Shown: piece by piece, positions 1 to 6,514 of the stretch | Layout of the letters: every line of letters begins with the position of its first letter | Numbering within the stretch: the first letter of the stretch is position 1 | Source of the DNA: a virus | Taxonomy: Duplodnaviria > Heunggongvirae > Uroviricota > Caudoviricetes | DNA length: 26,995 bases | Reading direction: 5' to 3' (one strand) | IMG/VR virus record: IMGVR_UViG_2724679542_000005 | Made by a program: the position numbers and the translations under genes | The notes under the pieces: generated by a model | What the model was told of the DNA's origin: nothing | Databases searched by the model: none | Seen by the model: the letters and a program-made list of their open reading frames with translations, nothing else

Positions 1-185
1 TTCATGGCCATATCAATGATTTTCTGGTGCGTACCGGGCTGAGAGGCGGTGTAAGTGAACTGTAGTTGCCATGTTTTACGGCAATGAGAGCAGAGATAGC
101 GCTGATGTCCGGCAGTGCTTTTGCCGTTACGCACCACGCCTTCAGTAGCGGAGCAGGAAGGACATCTGATGGAAATGGAAGCCAC
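1..185 (-). CDS. insA: IS1 InsA, 5' part only (GTG start at 185, gene runs off the window)
   Basis: Mirror image of the right-hand insA (26500-26775); same 55-nt offset from the IS1 end; GTG start inferred by symmetry. Confidence 0.8.
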
Positions 186-240
186 GCAAGCACCTTAAAA
201 TCACCATCATACACTAAATCAGTAAGTTGGCAGCATTACC
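1..240 (-). mobile_element. IS1 insertion sequence, partial (cut by window start); terminal inverted repeat ends at 240
   Basis: Reverse complement of 218-240 is the IS1 terminal repeat (ggtaatgctgccaacttactgat); region 1-240 is the reverse complement of 26445-26684, judged from identical ORF-track translations. Confidence 0.9.
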
Positions 241-260
241 CTTTATGCCATGTCCTTATT

Positions 261-289: not shown

Positions 290-606
290 GCGGAATTAAA
301 AACGATATCCTGCTGAGAACATAAACACCCACGGATCGAGGCGTACGCTATCATGTTGCTGTGCACCGCCCAGCTTATAATTGGCGGTGGTATCGATATC
401 CATGTACCAGACTGACATGTTTTAAAAAATGCAATAAGACATTGTATCTGAAAGAAAAAACAGGATTTTGAGGCGCTTTTTTATACCGTTTTTCCGTGTT
501 TTTAACTGCCTGATTTTATTGAAATCTTTTTTAGTTTTGCAGAAAGGATTTTTTGCTCGATCGCTTTAATTTTATACATTCCTGATAACGGAAATTTTTT
601 TGCCCG

Positions 607-636
607 TTGACAGTTTTTGTTCTCCGGGGCTATATT
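607..636 (+). promoter_or_regulatory. Candidate sigma70 promoter, TTGACA (607-612), 18-nt spacer, TATATT (631-636)
   Basis: Consensus -35 and near-consensus -10 hexamers seen directly; about 240 nt upstream of the rha start. Confidence 0.4.
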
Positions 637-878
637 CCTCACACAACCGCAAAATCGGTTGTCGGGATTGGCGTCTCGGATAACATCACAACGCATAGCC
701 GCGTTTGCGGTTTTTTTTGCGTTAAGCATTGCCACATTCGCATTATGGTGGGGCGTGCAGGGGCGGAGAAATCCGCGCCGGGTTTTGTGATGACCGGTTA
801 CGCCAACCCTGTACGTCTCACCACCTCCCTGATTGGCGTCAGAGGTGGTGATCATCCAATTAATTGGAGTCATCACAT

Positions 879-1436
879 ATGAATACAGCTATAACTTTTT
901 CTAACGAGTCACCAAAAGTCTTTTTCAAAGATGGTCGCCTGGTTACCACCTCTCAAGCTGTTGCCGACTACTTCGATAAACAACATAAACACGTTTTAGC
1001 TAAGATTGACACACTCGACTGCTCTCCCGAATTTACATCAGCCAACTTTTCGGCCGATGTTCAGACTGTCGAAATTGGCAACGGCGCAGAACGTGAATCA
1101 CGATGCTACCTGATCACAAAAGACGGCTTCATGTTCCTCGTAATGGGATTTACTGGCAAAAAAGCAGCCAGACTAAAAGAAGCTTACATTGAAAAATTTA
1201 ACGCAATGGAAGAAGAACTCCACAAACGTCCTCCTGCAGCACAAAACTCCCCCGCCCCAAATAATGGATGCGCATTACTGATCCACTTCGATAAACACGG
1301 TCAGGTCGAGTTCACAGAAAAAGTCCCCGCCGATGCGATGGTATGCACGCTGGAACGGTTTAAATTTTATCTGGAGCAACATGGGTGGATCGTTGCCCGT
1401 AAAGAACAATTGGTGGAAAGGTTGATGCGGTTTTAA
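879..1436 (+). CDS. rha: Phage regulatory protein, Rha family (N-terminal Rha domain, unrecognised C-terminal half)
   Basis: ORF track 864-1436; ATG at 879 with GGAG 9 nt upstream. Rha-family motifs FDKQHKHVLAKIDTL and YLITKDGFMFLVMGFTGKKAARLKEAYIEKFNAMEEEL recognised from memory of that family. Confidence 0.75.
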   Translation: MNTAITFSNESPKVFFKDGRLVTTSQAVADYFDKQHKHVLAKIDTLDCSPEFTSANFSADVQTVEIGNGAERESRCYLITKDGFMFLVMGFTGKKAARLKEAYIEKFNAMEEELHKRPPAAQNSPAPNNGCALLIHFDKHGQVEFTEKVPADAMVCTLERFKFYLEQHGWIVARKEQLVERLMRF

Positions 1437-1445
1437 TGAATGCAA

Positions 1446-1476
1446 AACCCCGGATGATCACCGGGGTTAATTTTAT
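1446..1476. terminator. Bidirectional hairpin terminator (aaccccgg / ccggggtt) between convergent rha and the small minus-strand ORF
   Basis: 8-bp GC-rich stem with 7-nt loop; T-run on the plus strand and TTTTG on the minus strand. Confidence 0.5.
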
Positions 1477-2173: not shown

Positions 2174-2185
2174 ACGGTGAAATCA

Positions 2186-2842
2186 ATGAAAAAAAACACA
2201 GATGATGGGGCTAAAATTTACACACCACTTACCCTAAAGCTTTATGACTGGTGGGTTTTGGGAGTATCAAATCGGCTTGCATGGGGATGTCCTACAAAGG
2301 AACACCTTCTTCCACACTTTCTGGAACATGTAGGTAACAACCATCTGGATATTGGTGTTGGAACTGGGTTTTACCTTACTCACGTACCTGAGAGTAGTCT
2401 GATATCTTTAATGGATTTGAACGAAGCTAGCCTGAACGCGGCATCTACAAGGGCTGGGGAATCAAAAATTAAACATAAAATTAGCCATGATGTTTTTGAA
2501 CCTTATCCCGCGGCGTTACATGGTCAATTTGATTCCATTTCCATGTTTTACCTTCTTCACTGCCTGCCTGGAAATATATCTACAAAAAGCTGTGTAATAC
2601 GCAATGCGGCGCAGGCCTTAACTGACGATGGAACTCTATACGGAGCCACAATTCTTGGCGATGGAGTTGTGCACAATAGCTTCGGTCAAAAACTGATGCG
2701 CATTTACAATCAGAAAGGCATCTTTTCAAACACAAAAGATTCCGAAGAAGGCTTAACACATATACTCTCAGAGCATTTCGAGAATGTTAAAACCAAGGTT
2801 CAAGGTACTGTAGTAATGTTTTCCGCTTCAGGGAAAAAATAG
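2186..2842 (+). CDS. Putative class I SAM-dependent methyltransferase (low-GC cargo gene; substrate unknown)
   Basis: ORF track 2177-2842 (GTG); ATG at 2186. Glycine-rich SAM-binding motif I LDIGVGTG; no DPPY/NPPY or PC-type DNA methyltransferase motifs. Lower GC than the structural genes by eye. Arrangement recalls tfaD-ybcY-tfaX of the E. coli K-12 DLP12 prophage (from memory). Confidence 0.7.
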   Translation: MKKNTDDGAKIYTPLTLKLYDWWVLGVSNRLAWGCPTKEHLLPHFLEHVGNNHLDIGVGTGFYLTHVPESSLISLMDLNEASLNAASTRAGESKIKHKISHDVFEPYPAALHGQFDSISMFYLLHCLPGNISTKSCVIRNAAQALTDDGTLYGATILGDGVVHNSFGQKLMRIYNQKGIFSNTKDSEEGLTHILSEHFENVKTKVQGTVVMFSASGKK

Positions 2843-2847
2843 CATCC

Positions 2848-3062
2848 AACCGCAGCACGTTCTTGCTTAAGACGTGCTGCGGCATAATCCCAATGATTAC
2901 TCCCTGACAGGGTTCGTAGGCCACTCAATATCAGGTGCAGTTGATGTATCAACACGGTTCAGCAACACCCGATATTTTTTCCAGGCTTCCAGCAATGAGG
3001 TTTCTTCCTCCGTTGCGATTTCCAGATCTACAGCATCCTGAAGTGGCGCAATATGCTCACTG
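2848..3062. repeat. Direct repeat copy B (~215 bp): 3' end of intact tfa plus downstream hairpin
   Basis: See copy A. Confidence 0.85.
2850..2882. terminator. Long hairpin (ccgcagcacgt ... acgtgctgcgg) between the methyltransferase stop and the tfa stop; possible bidirectional terminator
   Basis: 11-bp perfect inverted repeat seen directly; the T-run on the minus strand is about 10 nt away, so termination efficiency is uncertain. Confidence 0.4.
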
Positions 3063-3481
3063 GCTACCTGCATCAGGCTGTTTTTTGTTTCTTCCGCCTC
3101 CCGGATCCGGAACAGTTTTTCTGCTTCTGCATCTTTCACCCAGGCTGTGCCGTTCCACTTCTGAAACTCCCCTTCCGGCGATAACCAGGTAACATTTTCC
3201 GGTAACGGACCGAGTTCAGAAATAAATAACGCGTCCCCTGACGCTACGTCATAAACCGTTTTACCCCGATGGTCTTCAACGAGATGCCACGATGCCTCAT
3301 CACTGTTGAAAACAGCCACGAAGCCTGCCGGAATATCTGGCGGTGCAATATCGGTACTGTTTGCTGGCAGACCTGTATGAGGCGGAATATATGCATCACC
3401 TTCACCAATAAATTCATTAGTTCCGGCCAGCAGATTATAAATTTTTATGGTCCGTGGTTGTTCACTCATTCTGAATGCCAT
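2897..3481 (-). CDS. tfa: Tail fibre assembly protein Tfa
   Basis: 194-aa ORF-track product matches lambda Tfa from memory; start ATG overlaps the stf stop (TAATG). Confidence 0.9.
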
Positions 3482-6400
3482 TATGCAAGCCTCACAATAT
3501 AGTTAAATGCGATGTTTTTGACGGTGTTTTCCGCGTTACCAGCAGCGTTAACGGTGATGGTATGTCCATGTGAACCAATCGCAACGGAGTGCGTATGAGC
3601 ACCAATACCGACAGTATGTGCGTGTGCACCTGCGCTTGCAGCAGTACCCGATACAGAGTGCGTATGAGCGCCTGCAGAAGAAGTGTTAACACTGTATTTA
3701 GAATAATCAGGTGATCCACTTCCCGGAGCACCACTGGAACCACCTGAAACAAATGTCATCGAATGGGTATGTGCACCGGCTGAAGCAGCCGTACCGCTAA
3801 CACTATGGGTATGCGCACCAGTGTTATTCGTGGATTTAGTGCCGTAATCAAACGACGATGTGGTTTTCGTCCCCAAATCCGTACTGGATACGCTGGCGCT
3901 GTGGGTGTGTGATTTAATGCCGTCCTGTTCCTGAGACAATACGGCTCGATCACTGGCGGGCTTGCCCTTAATCGTCCAGCCACGCATATCAGGGATCACG
4001 CCTGACGGATAAGCGGCTGCAAGTTTCGGGTAAGCAGATTTGTCAAAAGTCTGCCCCTGCATCAGGGCATAACCAGACGGAACGGTATCTGATGGCCACG
4101 GGATTGGTGCACCGACTGGATAAAACTCTGCAGGAGGATGAGCCGAGGTGTAAAGCTGCGCCCACGGCGACCAGTTTGCGTCGGTCGTATCCCGTCGTGA
4201 ACGAATAAATGCCGGAGCATGAGCACCGCTTGTACCACTCCAGCCGATGAGTAACTCACCTTCGCCAACGGCTGTCATCCCTTTCAGGTGAATGATATTT
4301 CCATACGCTGTTGGATATCCGTTGTTATACACCTCGTATAACTCAAGACCTGTTGCCCCCTGCGTATTGTCTGTCAGCGCGGTTACCCGACCTTTTGAAG
4401 ACAGATTAACTGATGATACTGCTGTTCCACCTGACGGTAACGCCCCGATCTCTGATGCCGTTGGCTTATTTCTGGAGTTATAGTCCCTTCGCCAGCCAGG
4501 TGAATAATCTGTTCCGTGATTAATATAGGTAAACTGGGCGTTAGTTGTTCCACCACCAGTGGAGGTGGTCGGTGTGGTAATGCGGATCGTCATCGCTGAC
4601 TTTATCCCCATTACTTCAATGACAGCTCCGGCGAGATGAATATTACCGCAGCCAGTATCAGTAATGATTTTATTATTGCCATAAGACCAGGAACCCTTGC
4701 ACATCCAGTATGGATGGTTAAATGCTCCCTGAGAATCCAGCCACTCGATAAACTGTGCAGTCGTCCAGTTTCCTGTTGTTGTGCTTACTGACCCACCGAA
4801 GGCACGGCAGGCACCAATATTTTTCGTAAAGGTGTCTTTGCCAGGGATATCCGCACCGTTCTGATCTTTCTGCAGACGTTTCTCAGCATTGTCATTGGCT
4901 GCTTTTACTGCCTTTGGCGTTGCCGCCAGCGTTTCAGACGTGCTGTTGGTCGCGCTGCTTAGCTGGATTATCCCTTTCTGTGCTGTCGTTGCATCCTGTG
5001 CGGTGTATTTCCCGTTAGCCAGGTCATACGCGGCCTTAACGGCTTTTGGCGTTGCCGCCAGTGACTCGGAAGTGCTGTTGGTCGCACTGCTGAGCTGTAC
5101 TATCCCCTTTTTCGTCGTGCTCGCATCCTCAAGCGCCACGGCGGATGCAATATCCTCTGCCCGTTTTGCCGCTGTCTCGGCGCGCGTTGCTGCAGATTCC
5201 GCCGTACTTTTGCTCTGAGCTGCCGCCGTCGCACTGCCAGCTGCCTCTGTCGCCTTCGTGGATGCCGTCGTGGCGCTACCCTTCGCTGCTGACGCCTGTC
5301 TGGTCGCCTCATCTTTTGAAGCAGACGCCGATGAGGCCGATGACGACGCCGAACTGGCTGACGATGCGGCAGCCGTTTTTGAGGATTCTGCGCTGGTTTC
5401 CGACGCTTTCGCGTTCGTTTCGGATGTCTTCGCTGCGGAAGCAGACCTCGCTGCTGCGCTGGCCTGTTCAGTGGCTTCGCCAGCCTTCGTTGTGGCTGTT
5501 GAAGCAGACGATGCGGCGCTTTCTGCCGATTTTCCGGCGGCGGTGGCACTGGCTGAGGCCTGCCCGGCACTTGTTGACGCTGCACTGGCAGACGACGCAG
5601 CCGCTGTTTTTGAGCCTGCCGCAGCCGAGGCGCTCTGTCCCGCTGCCGTTTCAGAAGACCTGGCGTTCGTCTCTGACGTTTTTGCCGCCTTCGCGGAATT
5701 TCCTGCCGCTGTTGCCGAGGAAGCTGCGCTACTGGCGCTCGAGGATGCGTTCGTTTCTGATGATTTTGCCGCCTCTTTTGAAGCCGCCGCATCCCGGGCT
5801 GAGGTGGCAGCTTCTGACGCTTTCGTAGTCGCGGTGGATGCAGAAGTGGCTGCTGATTGTTGTGACGCTGCAGCATTCGTTTCTGACGTTTTCGCGGCAC
5901 TGGCACTGGTAGCTGCCGCGCTTTTTGAGGACTCTGCAGCGGCAGCACTTTTTGATGCTTCAGTGGCCTTTGTTGATGCCGTTCCTGCGCTGGAAGTCGC
6001 TGACTGAGCCGACGACGCGGCCTGTCCGGCTGACGTGCTGGCTGCGCGTGCTGAGCCTGCAGCATCAGTCGCATGGGTTGCCGCCTCACGGGCTGATGTG
6101 CTGGCATCACTGGCTGACTTCTTCGCGGCTGCCGTGTTCTGTGCCACCACGGACGCGTTACGCGCCACCTCTTCCACCATCAGCTCAAAACGGCGCAGTG
6201 CCTCCGGACGGGCATCATCCTCCGTCATGGCACCGAGAAAATCATTCAGCGTACCGGGTCGGGAATCTTCATACACGGTGATGGTCCCGGCATGTGACGG
6301 CGGGAATCCTTCCACCAACAGAATAACGCTGTACTGACCGTACTCAACGTCCATGCTGTAACGCCCGGCTTCATCCGGATTTTCAGATGCCAGCGTGTTC

Positions 6401-6504
6401 ACCACCACCGTGGTACTGTTACGTTTTGCTTTCAGCTGGATTGTGCAGTTCTGTACCGGTTTTCCTGTGCCGTCTTTCAGTACACCTGAAATTTTTACTG
6501 CCAT
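3481..6504 (-). CDS. stf: Side tail fibre protein Stf (1007 aa, mosaic; intact reading frame)
   Basis: ORF track 3481-6510; ATG at 6504 gives [26 protein letters not shown]..., the lambda Stf N-terminus; C-terminus ...[31 protein letters not shown] with GAHTHS-type His repeats. Confidence 0.9.
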
Positions 6505-6514
6505 ATTCACCCCA

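What the first reader, a model, noticed from the sequence alone, without database searches (positions are those of the whole stretch)
607..878. Promoter followed by a long structured leader, or small RNA, upstream of rha
A near-consensus sigma70 promoter (TTGACA-N18-TATATT) lies about 240 nt before the rha start. The intervening transcript would contain a hairpin at 645-660, a short GC stem followed by eight T residues at 699-718, and a second stem plus T-run at 761-789. This looks like an attenuator-controlled leader or a separate ~75-nt small RNA ending at the T8 tract.
Basis: seen in the sequence. Interest (0 to 1): 0.4.

Follow-up and report, generated by a model that had tools for sequence, protein, structure and literature searches.

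The report
IsrK and C4 RNAs controlling rha
The stretch in front of rha is a real copy of a known phage RNA control cassette: a promoter, the ~75-nt IsrK small RNA with its terminator, and a C4-type antisense RNA, which together keep an antirepressor-type gene silent. It is genuine but ordinary, already-described biology.

Summary
TTGACA-N18-TATATT (607-636) is the only such site in the window. It is followed by two hairpins, then a stem plus U8 terminator ending at 718.

Rfam places two curated families here, both above their gathering scores: IsrK (643-717, 72 bits) and C4 antisense RNA (741-828, 76 bits). The "second stem plus T-run" at 761-789 is the inside of C4, not a terminator.

The layout is the same as the studied Gifsy-1 isrK-orf45-anrP locus and the P1 immI operon (a1 b1 – c4 – a2 b2 – gene). 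That includes a 45-codon ORF whose stop overlaps the rha ATG.

In 21 non-identical loci, the variable C4 loop is complementary to its own IsrK linker and to a site at its own downstream ribosome-binding site (0 of 20,000 permutations do as well). The constant site also covaries three ways. The downstream genes are antirepressor types: Rha, ORF6N, Bro-N, KilA-N, AntA and P22_AR_N.

No transcript data exist for this locus. The exact order of the RNA-RNA events is inferred.

The parts
607..636 (+). Sigma-70 promoter: -35 TTGACA 607-612, 18-nt spacer, -10 TATATT 631-636. Predicted start at A643, 7 nt after the -10.
   Evidence: The same hexamers and spacing occur in Gifsy-1 PisrK. TTGACA is exact in 20 of 23 aligned loci.
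643..718 (+). IsrK-type small RNA (75-76 nt): hairpin 1, hairpin 2, linker, terminator.
   Evidence: Rfam RF01394 scores 72.2 bits (gathering 50) over the full model 1-77. RF03163 c4-a1b1 scores 43.8 bits over 630-682, just under its gathering score of 46.7.
643..662 (+). IsrK hairpin 1: stem 643-649 with 656-662, loop CAAAAU. GCAAAAUC is invariant in all 23 loci.
   Evidence: 95% of cells paired, and 5 of 7 pairs carry compensatory changes.
663..678 (+). IsrK hairpin 2, presenting site a1 (AUUGGCGU, 667-674) in its loop.
   Evidence: 100% paired; duplex with a' is -17.5 kcal/mol (3 of 1000 shuffles as good); three-way covariation.
684..691 (+). Site b1 (CAUCACAA) in the variable IsrK linker, complementary to the C4 loop at 785-792.
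697..718 (+). Intrinsic terminator of IsrK: stem 697-702 with 707-712, U8 at 711-718. A competing upstream hairpin at 690-705 shares bases 701-705.
741..828 (+). C4-type antisense RNA. Outer stem 746-762 with 807-823; hairpin 763-776; hairpin 777-798 with its 12-nt loop at 782-793; single-stranded 799-806.
   Evidence: Rfam RF01695 scores 75.9 bits (gathering 45) over the full model. The MFE equals the model structure, z = -5.2. Covariation.
785..794 (+). Site b' (UUGUGAUGAC) in the C4 loop. This is the variable specificity determinant.
800..807 (+). Site a' (ACGCCAAC), the single-stranded stretch of C4.
745..882 (+). orf45 equivalent: ATG at 745, 45 codons, TGA at 880-882 overlapping the rha ATG (ATGA).
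   Evidence: Gifsy-1 has the same length and the same overlap, and there the ORF is translated and needed for anrP translation (PMC4825925).
829..842 (+). Small hairpin presenting site a2 (AUUGGCGU, 832-839) in its loop.
   Evidence: (helix 7, 3 of 4 pairs compensatory).
845..876 (+). Predicted hairpin that sequesters the rha Shine-Dalgarno (GGAG 866-869) and most of site b2.
   Evidence: MFE of the 643-890 leader. This is a prediction only.
869..877 (+). Site b2 (GUCAUCACA), between the Shine-Dalgarno and the rha ATG. It is a perfect 9-nt complement of the C4 loop at 786-794.
   Evidence: -13.0 kcal/mol (1 of 1000 shuffles as good); cognate versus non-cognate test.
879..1436 (+). rha: a 185-aa protein with an N-terminal Phage_pRha domain. 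Its C-terminal ~65 aa resemble Gifsy-1 AnrP.
1446..1468 (+). Terminator-like hairpin after rha; probable end of the operon.
   Evidence: -14.3 kcal/mol, z = -3.0. No isrJ match.

Best explanation
Positions 607-878 hold an immI-type RNA control cassette for an antirepressor-class gene. It is homologous to the Gifsy-1 isrK-orf45-anrP locus and to the P1/P7 c4 system.

Proposed working:
1. A constitutive-looking sigma-70 promoter starts transcription at about 643.
2. Most transcripts stop at the U8 terminator and give the ~75-nt IsrK RNA. This RNA displays sites a1 (a hairpin loop) and b1 (the linker).
3. A fraction reads through and carries the C4 RNA (sites a' and b'), a second copy of the sites (a2 in a hairpin loop, b2 on the rha ribosome-binding site), and rha.
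4. On the read-through RNA, rha is silent. Its ribosome-binding site is folded away or covered by the C4 loop. C4 may act in cis, or in trans after processing.
5. Free IsrK carries the same a and b sites. It competes for C4 and refolds the leader. The 45-codon ORF that runs through C4 is then translated, and its ribosomes reinitiate at the overlapping rha ATG.

Shown here: family membership, architecture, conserved structure, and three-way covariation of the pairing sites. Taken from Gifsy-1 and P1 experiments: read-through, activation by IsrK in trans, translational coupling, and repression by C4 at a2/b2. Inferred: that these steps operate at this E. coli locus, and that Rha acts as an antirepressor.
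For: Family matches:
- Rfam IsrK and C4 both score above their gathering scores over the full models. c4-a1b1 is just below its gathering score.
- The P1 immI region gives the same three Rfam matches in the same order. P1's own annotation lists a1, b1, c4, a2, b2, then icd overlapping ant1.

Match to Gifsy-1:
- The promoter hexamers are the same as in Gifsy-1.
- With the start set at 643, the Gifsy-1 bases shown by compensatory mutation to pair (G28-C162, G31-C159) fall on G670-C804 and G673-C801, which also pair here.
- orf45 has the same 45 codons and the same ATGA overlap.

Comparative evidence:
- 23 non-identical loci share the same order of parts.
- 28 of 49 base pairs carry compensatory changes, and no shuffle of 500 reaches this.
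- The C4 loop's longest complementary run with its own b1 averages 7.5, against 3.9 for non-cognate pairs. With its own b2 it averages 8.05, against 4.8. In both tests 0 of 20,000 permutations do as well. In 19 of the 21 loci b2 ends 2-14 nt before the ATG; in L009 it runs across the start codon, and the L045 start call is unreliable.
- The two variable bases of site a covary in a1, a' and a2 in all 23 sequences, including P1.
- Downstream genes in other loci carry Rha, ORF6N, Bro-N, KilA-N, AntA or P22_AR_N domains.
Against: - There are no transcript, processing or protein data for this locus.
- The terminator hairpin is weak, and isolated IsrK has an alternative MFE fold (-24.0 against -20.5 kcal/mol for the canonical fold) that other loci lack.
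- The a'-a2 duplex is not better than shuffles on its own (143 of 1000).
- The orf45-type coupled ORF is absent from many family members. Coupling therefore cannot be the general mechanism.
- The Gifsy-1 authors did not see a structural change at the anrP ribosome-binding site, and their cis mutants in the IsrK middle raise translation rather than lower it. This does not fit a simple decoy model.
- Unlike Gifsy-1, the cassette is not downstream of a Q antiterminator gene. It sits at the prophage end, next to an ompW fragment.
- Rha and AnrP share only a C-terminal ~65 aa at 32% identity.
Confidence: 0.85

Rival explanations
1. The leader is a purely cis-acting transcriptional attenuator. An upstream hairpin (690-705) competes with the terminator (697-712) and sets how much transcription reaches rha. 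No trans-acting small RNA has a role.
For: A hairpin whose 3' arm overlaps the terminator's 5' arm can be drawn in 16 of 21 loci by the automatic test, and by eye in the others. Its 5' arm abuts or overlaps b1. The Gifsy-1 authors raise the idea that the C4-region RNA could modulate the IsrK terminator, as P4 CI RNA does.
Against: The competing hairpin is less stable than the terminator (mean -5.1 against -9.0 kcal/mol) and hardly better than shuffles (mean z = -1.2). In the enterobacterial loci only 1-2 nt overlap. This model explains neither the a2/b2 sites at the ribosome-binding site nor their covariation. In Gifsy-1, IsrK works in trans.
Confidence: 0.15
2. The stretch encodes a protein: the 91-aa 'ash family protein' that RefSeq annotates over 607-882.
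For: An ORF is open from TTG 607 to TGA 882. PGAP annotates it. Pfam PF10554 Phage_ASH matches with E = 2.9e-14. 20 of 22 loci have some frame open across the region.
Against: Its TTG start is the first three bases of the -35 hexamer, so it lies upstream of the predicted transcript. The invariant nucleotide blocks are read in different frames in different loci: frame 0 here, frame 2 in Gifsy-1. Substitutions are compensatory for RNA stems. Two RNA covariance models explain the conservation. Only the last 45 codons have experimental support as a translated ORF in Gifsy-1.
Confidence: 0.03
3. It is a late-promoter (PR'-type) leader. The short terminated RNA is a by-product of Q-dependent antitermination, like lambda 6S RNA.
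For: In Gifsy-1, isrK lies directly downstream of the Q-like gene antQ. One paper describes IsrK as coming from an antitermination-regulated promoter (PMC7547250).
Against: Here the promoter lies about 185 nt from an ompW fragment that marks the prophage end, with IS1 beyond it. No Q gene is upstream. The same cassette precedes antirepressor genes in P1 and in many unrelated contigs. The covarying antisense sites are not explained.
Confidence: 0.04
4. It is an inert relic. The cassette is intact in sequence but no longer functions, because the prophage is defective.
For: The window's copy has IS1 inserted just outside the prophage end. Truncated tail-fibre-assembly genes lie next to rha.
Against: Every functional element is intact and pairs as in the active relatives: promoter, both RNAs, all six sites, orf45, the ATGA overlap and the rha ORF. 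445 E. coli genomes hold at least 80% of 242-1500, and the listed copies are 99.8% identical.
Confidence: 0.1

Closest known systems
Gifsy-1 isrK-orf45-anrP locus of Salmonella Typhimurium (Hershko-Shalev et al. 2016, PMC4825925)
   Same: - Same promoter hexamers and spacing.
- IsrK of about 75 nt with the same three hairpins.
- A C4-type RNA (their orf45 / STnc1160 region).
- A 45-codon ORF ending in ATGA on the next gene's start.
- The experimentally paired bases G28/C162 and G31/C159 are conserved and pair here.
- 75% nucleotide identity over 619-852.
   Different: - The downstream protein has a Rha N-domain instead of ORF6N; only the C-terminal ~65 aa are alike.
- The b-site specificity sequence differs: UGUGAUGA here, CGGUGAU in Gifsy-1.
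- There is no Q-like gene upstream and no isrJ downstream. The cassette sits at the prophage end beside ompW'.
- There is one orf45 AUG, not two.
P1/P7 immI operon: c4 antisense RNA with a1 b1 / a2 b2 targets, icd, ant1/2
   Same: Same order: promoter, a1 b1, C4, a2 b2, coding region. Rfam finds C4 and c4-a1b1 above their gathering scores and an IsrK-like element below its gathering score in P1. Site a covaries with P1's UUGACAG / CUGUCAA. A small ORF overlaps the antirepressor start by 4 nt.
   Different: - In P1, b2 precedes icd (73 aa, a cell-division inhibitor), which lies downstream of c4. Here b2 sits directly on the rha ribosome-binding site, and the small ORF runs through C4 itself.
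- The P1 promoters carry a C1 operator; none was identified here.
- The downstream protein families differ (Ant versus Rha).
P4 immunity: CI RNA with seqA and seqC
   Same: A processed small RNA lies between two copies of its own target sequence on one transcript. The Gifsy-1 authors call IsrK a structural homologue of the seqA RNA.
   Different: P4 CI acts by causing premature transcription termination of replication genes. Termination control was tested here only by folding and is inconclusive. No P4 sequence was compared.
P22 sar antisense RNA controlling ant
   Same: A small phage RNA that blocks translation of an antirepressor at its ribosome-binding site (review PMC12197685).
   Different: sar is transcribed from the opposite strand of its target (true cis-antisense). 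Here all the elements are on the same strand. There is no sequence or structural relation.

Membership tests
IsrK (Rfam RF01394) | Matches the covariance model at or above the gathering score over its full length | tested here: met
   72.2 bits against 50, model positions 1-77, window 643-717.
IsrK (Rfam RF01394) | Own sigma-70 promoter, and an intrinsic terminator giving an RNA of about 75 nt | tested here: met
   Promoter 607-636 and terminator 697-718. The resulting length of 75-76 nt is a prediction; no RNA ends were mapped.
IsrK (Rfam RF01394) | Middle part pairs with the downstream orf45/C4 region (Gifsy-1 helix b-I: G28-C162, G31-C159) | tested here: met
   G670-C804 and G673-C801 pair. 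The a1/a' duplex is -17.5 kcal/mol and the b1/b' duplex is -10.5 kcal/mol.
IsrK (Rfam RF01394) | Followed by a small ORF translationally coupled to an antirepressor-like gene | tested here: met
   orf45 at 745-882 with an ATGA overlap on rha. Whether coupling actually happens was not tested.
IsrK (Rfam RF01394) | Hfq binding and activation of the downstream gene in trans | not testable with these tools
   Needs experiments.
IsrK locus as in Gifsy-1 | Located directly downstream of a Q-like antiterminator gene whose expression it feeds back on | tested here: not met
   Upstream are an ompW 3' fragment and IS1. The cassette is the outermost prophage feature.
C4 antisense RNA (Rfam RF01695, clan CL00128) | Matches the covariance model at or above the gathering score; long outer stem enclosing two hairpins and a single-stranded stretch | tested here: met
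   75.9 bits against 45. The MFE structure is identical to the model structure, z = -5.2.
C4 antisense RNA (Rfam RF01695, clan CL00128) | Two exposed sites (a', b') complementary to a2/b2 at the ribosome-binding site of the downstream gene | tested here: met
   b' at 786-794 is a perfect complement of 869-877, next to Shine-Dalgarno 866-869. a' at 800-806 complements 833-839 (7 bp), within site a2 at 832-839. The cognate versus non-cognate test gives 0 of 20,000.
C4 antisense RNA (Rfam RF01695, clan CL00128) | Upstream a1/b1 copy of the targets (Rfam RF03163 c4-a1b1) | tested here: inconclusive
   43.8 bits against a gathering score of 46.7 (E = 1.5e-9) at 630-682. The sites themselves are present and covary.
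C4 antisense RNA (Rfam RF01695, clan CL00128) | Processed from the precursor transcript to a stable ~77-nt RNA that represses in trans | not testable with these tools
   Known for P1. The involvement of RNase P is recalled from memory and was not checked here.
Classical terminator/antiterminator attenuator | A mutually exclusive, comparably stable antiterminator hairpin that is conserved | tested here: inconclusive
   A competing hairpin at 690-705 exists (-5.1 against -8.1 kcal/mol). Overlap with the terminator is seen in most loci, but the mean z is only -1.2.
Ash protein family (Pfam PF10554) | A translated protein with a conserved reading frame | tested here: not met
   The HMM matches. 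However, the start codon lies in the -35 hexamer, and the conserved blocks are read in different frames in different loci.

The most novel reading that the evidence does not exclude
C4 RNA may be the actual repressor in the IsrK-type cassettes of lambdoid prophages, occluding the antirepressor ribosome-binding site at a2/b2 as in P1. IsrK would then be a dedicated decoy carrying the same two sites. The hypervariable b site (IsrK linker, C4 loop, ribosome-binding site) would be an immunity-specificity code. It would decide which co-resident or superinfecting phages can silence or unleash each other's antirepressors. On this reading the orf45 coupling seen in Gifsy-1 and here is a lineage-specific add-on, because many members lack it.
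Probability: 0.35. Interest if true: 0.45.

Novelty: new member of a known kind. Interest (0 to 1): 0.2.

Why it matters
It shows that an E. coli prophage integrated at ompW, present in about 8% of complete E. coli genomes, carries an intact copy of the RNA switch that triggers prophage induction in Salmonella Gifsy-1. Here the switch is wired to a Rha-type protein.

The comparative result is the useful by-product. The C4 loop, the IsrK linker and the ribosome-binding site of the downstream gene change together across distant phages. This links the Gifsy-1 and P1 models and points to specificity classes.

It also flags the RefSeq 'ash family protein' call at this position as most likely an RNA region.

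For the scan itself, this is a correct call of a known element, not a discovery.

Tried and rejected
- Protein-coding reading ('ash family protein'): rejected. See the rival explanations.
- Second terminator at 761-789: rejected. It is C4 hairpin 1 plus the loop of hairpin 2.
- tRNA or tmRNA: none found.
- isrJ-like RNA after rha, as in Gifsy-1: not found at E up to 1.
- An antiterminator formed by the IsrK 5' end (645-653) pairing with 705-713. This is the MFE of isolated IsrK in the window, but it is absent from the other 20 loci, which fold canonically. I treat it as idiosyncratic.
- My first labelling of the a and b sites was the reverse of P1's nomenclature, and some coordinates were off by 1-2 nt. 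Both were corrected after reading the P1 record and re-indexing (note).
- The broad pattern scan of viral contigs returned mostly chance matches. I filtered them by requiring a T-run and a GCCAA site downstream.
- The first duplex-energy version of the cognate test included the GC-rich hairpin stem and was noisy. I replaced it with a loop-only test.
- The scripts failed part-way. One search is the usable version, but it mis-assigns the terminator in L008, L010, L011, L028 and L067.
- The plasmid hit CP054240 turned out to be another chromosomal-type copy next to trpB, not the source of the window.

Full report
**What is in the sequence**

TTGACA-N18-TATATT lies at 607-636 (11 of 12 consensus positions). 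It is the only such site in the window at up to one mismatch, with 0.05 expected from shuffles.

Seven bases after the -10 hexamer, at 643, a 7-bp hairpin begins (643-662, loop CAAAAU). A 5-bp hairpin follows (663-678, loop UUGGCG). Then come an 18-nt linker and a 6-bp stem followed by U8 (697-718), which the terminator scan reports.

After a 22-nt gap there is a very stable fold at 741-828 (-47.4 kcal/mol, z = -5.2). It is followed by a 4-bp hairpin at 829-842, again with loop UUGGCG. Then come GGAG at 866-869 and the rha ATG at 879.

The one exception is that the "stem plus T-run" at 761-789 is not a terminator. It is an internal hairpin of the 741-828 fold plus four U in the next loop.

**Identity**

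A scan of the window against Rfam gives two matches here above the curators' thresholds:
- IsrK (RF01394), 643-717, 72.2 bits against 50, full model.
- C4 antisense RNA (RF01695), 741-828, 75.9 bits against 45, full model.

A permissive scan adds c4-a1b1 (RF03163, "a1, b1 targets of C4 antisense RNA") at 630-682 with 43.8 bits, just under its 46.7 threshold.

The downstream gene has a Phage_pRha domain (E = 3e-27).

**Comparison with the studied relatives**

Gifsy-1 is 75% identical over 619-852. It has the same promoter hexamers, IsrK, C4 and a downstream gene.

Hershko-Shalev et al. (PMC4825925) reported the following:
- PisrK drives a short terminated IsrK and a read-through isrK-orf45-anrP mRNA.
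- That mRNA is translationally silent because the middle of IsrK pairs with the 3' part of orf45 (G28-C162 and G31-C159, proven by compensatory mutants).
- IsrK supplied in trans opens this structure.
- orf45 translation then allows anrP translation through an AUGA overlap.
- AnrP raises antQ expression and induces the prophage.

With the start set at 643, those four bases are G670, G673, C801 and C804 in the window, and they pair. The window also has a 45-codon ORF (745-882) ending in ATGA on the rha start.

P1 shows the same architecture. Its record annotates the promoters, a1, b1, c4, a2, b2, and icd overlapping ant1. Rfam finds C4 and c4-a1b1 above threshold there, plus an IsrK-like element at 35 bits.

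In P1's nomenclature the window sites are:

| Site | Sequence | Coordinates |
|---|---|---|
| a1 | AUUGGCGU | 667-674 |
| b1 | CAUCACAA | 684-691 |
| b' | UUGUGAUGAC | 785-794 |
| a' | ACGCCAAC | 800-807 |
| a2 | AUUGGCGU | 832-839 |
| b2 | GUCAUCACA | 869-877 |

**Comparative test**

I collected 23 non-identical loci with the same order of parts: Gifsy-1, an E. coli chromosome, and viral contigs from very different samples.

- Structure. On 21 distinct sequences the named structure is 78% paired, against 65.5% in shuffles. 28 of 49 pairs carry compensatory changes (0 of 500 shuffles reach this), and the register control peaks sharply at zero. MAFFT misaligns the terminator and the second C4 hairpin, so their low pair counts reflect the alignment. 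Folded one by one, each of the 21 sequences shows a hairpin, or room for one, just before its T5-8 run. In five of them (L008, L010, L011, L028, L067) the MFE prefers a competing hairpin.
- Site b. The linker, the C4 loop and the stretch before the start codon are the most variable parts, and they vary together. The C4 loop's longest complementary run averages 7.5 with its own linker against 3.9 with others, and 8.05 with its own pre-ATG region against 4.8 with others. In both tests 0 of 20,000 permutations do as well. In 19 of the 21 loci the b2 match ends 2-14 nt before the ATG; in L009 it runs across the start codon, and the start codon called for L045 is unreliable.
- Site a. The two variable bases of site a covary in a1, a' and a2 in all 23 sequences including P1: GU/AC, CG/CG, GA/UC, AG/CU and AU/AU.
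- This window. b'/b2 is a perfect 9-bp duplex (-13.0 kcal/mol; 1 of 1000 shuffles as good). a'/a1 is -17.5 kcal/mol (3 of 1000). b'/b1 is -10.5 (40 of 1000). a'/a2 is -10.3 and is not significant alone (143 of 1000).
- Downstream genes. In other loci they carry Rha, ORF6N, Bro-N, KilA-N, AntA or P22_AR_N domains. All are antirepressor-type N-terminal domains.

**How it most likely works**

Shown by homology and covariation: IsrK, C4 and the rha ribosome-binding site interact through two pairs of sites.

Taken from experiments on relatives: the read-through transcript is translationally off, IsrK in trans turns it on, and orf45 translation is needed (Gifsy-1). C4 bound at a2/b2 blocks translation (P1; annotation, reviews).

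Predicted for this locus: the leader's MFE hides the Shine-Dalgarno sequence and most of b2 in a hairpin at 845-876. The 5' strand of that hairpin (GGUGGUGAU, 844-852) can instead pair with the 3' strand of the C4 outer stem (CACCACC, 819-825). Opening C4, whether by IsrK or by ribosomes on orf45, could therefore be relayed to the rha start. This relay is my inference.

The coupled ORF is missing from many family members, whereas the RNA sites are universal. Antisense control at b2 is therefore the more general feature.

**Attenuation**

A hairpin at 690-705 shares bases with the terminator, and its 5' arm overlaps b1. Similar arrangements can be drawn in most loci. They are weaker than the terminators and barely better than shuffles (mean z = -1.2).

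C4-assisted termination in the manner of P4 CI RNA remains possible but unsupported. The Gifsy-1 authors' own test did not favour it.

**Context**

- The window's first 241 bases are an IS1 end (InsA).
- 296-421 on the minus strand encodes the last 41 residues of OmpW.
- In E. coli GN04592 the same sequence lies between yciE and lambda-like tail-fibre genes. The cassette is therefore the outermost feature of a prophage integrated at ompW.
- 445 of 5,426 complete E. coli genomes hold at least 80% of 242-1500, and the listed copies are 99.8% identical.
- RefSeq annotates 607-882 as an "ash family protein". Its TTG start is the -35 hexamer, and the conserved blocks are read in different frames in different loci. 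The annotation is most likely an RNA region read as protein, apart from the orf45 part.

**Verdict**

The interpretation (small RNA and/or regulated leader) is right in substance but incomplete.

The element is a new member of a known kind. It differs from Gifsy-1 in the b-site sequence, in the N-domain of the controlled protein, and in its genomic position.

What cannot be settled here:
- whether the RNAs are made and processed in this strain;
- the order of the RNA-RNA events;
- what Rha does.

Noticed in passing
window 1-241: This is the end of an IS1 element (InsA N-terminus on the minus strand, 3-185; Pfam Zn_ribbon_InsA E = 2e-20). It sits where E. coli GN04592 has yciE, so the window's copy of the prophage junction has an IS1 insertion right beside it.
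   Followed up: partly
window 296-421 (-): This encodes the last 41 residues of OmpW (Pfam E = 2e-15). It is the duplicated 3' end of ompW that marks the prophage attachment site. Nearly all E. coli genomes match this part of the query.
   Followed up: partly
window 607-882 (+): RefSeq/PGAP annotates an 'ash family protein' here, and Pfam PF10554 matches. The ORF starts in the -35 hexamer and lies over two RNA genes. The Pfam family may be largely built from translated IsrK/C4 regions.
   Followed up: partly
window 650-655, and all 23 aligned loci: The hairpin-1 loop sequence GCAAAAUC is invariant in all 23 loci (P1 has GCAAAUUC), while the stem below it covaries freely. I found no conserved complementary partner. 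Its role is unexplained; it could be a protein-binding site or a host target.
   Followed up: no
window 2177-2842 (+): A class I SAM-dependent methyltransferase gene is inserted on the opposite strand between two tail-fibre-assembly gene pieces (1848-2117 and 2897-3481, both Caudo_TAP). It looks like a cargo ('moron') gene.
   Followed up: no
window 2940-3138 (-): Rfam IS009 matches strongly (227 bits), but the match lies entirely inside the coding sequence of the tail-fibre-assembly gene at 2897-3481. The 'sRNA' family may simply reflect conserved coding sequence.
   Followed up: no
window 3481-6510 (-): This 1009-aa tail-fibre protein has a long run of Ala/Ser/Thr-rich near-repeats (…[12 protein letters not shown]…) in its N-terminal half.
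   Followed up: no
window 645-653 with 705-713: In this locus only, the 5' end of IsrK (AACCGCAAA) is a perfect 9-nt complement of the terminator's 3' side (UUUGCGGUU). This gives an alternative fold of isolated IsrK that is 3.5 kcal/mol better than the canonical one. The other 20 loci lack it.
   Followed up: partly
L009 827-1123 (-): One related viral contig has a ryfA RNA (Rfam 143 bits) a few hundred bases upstream of its IsrK-C4 cassette.
   Followed up: no
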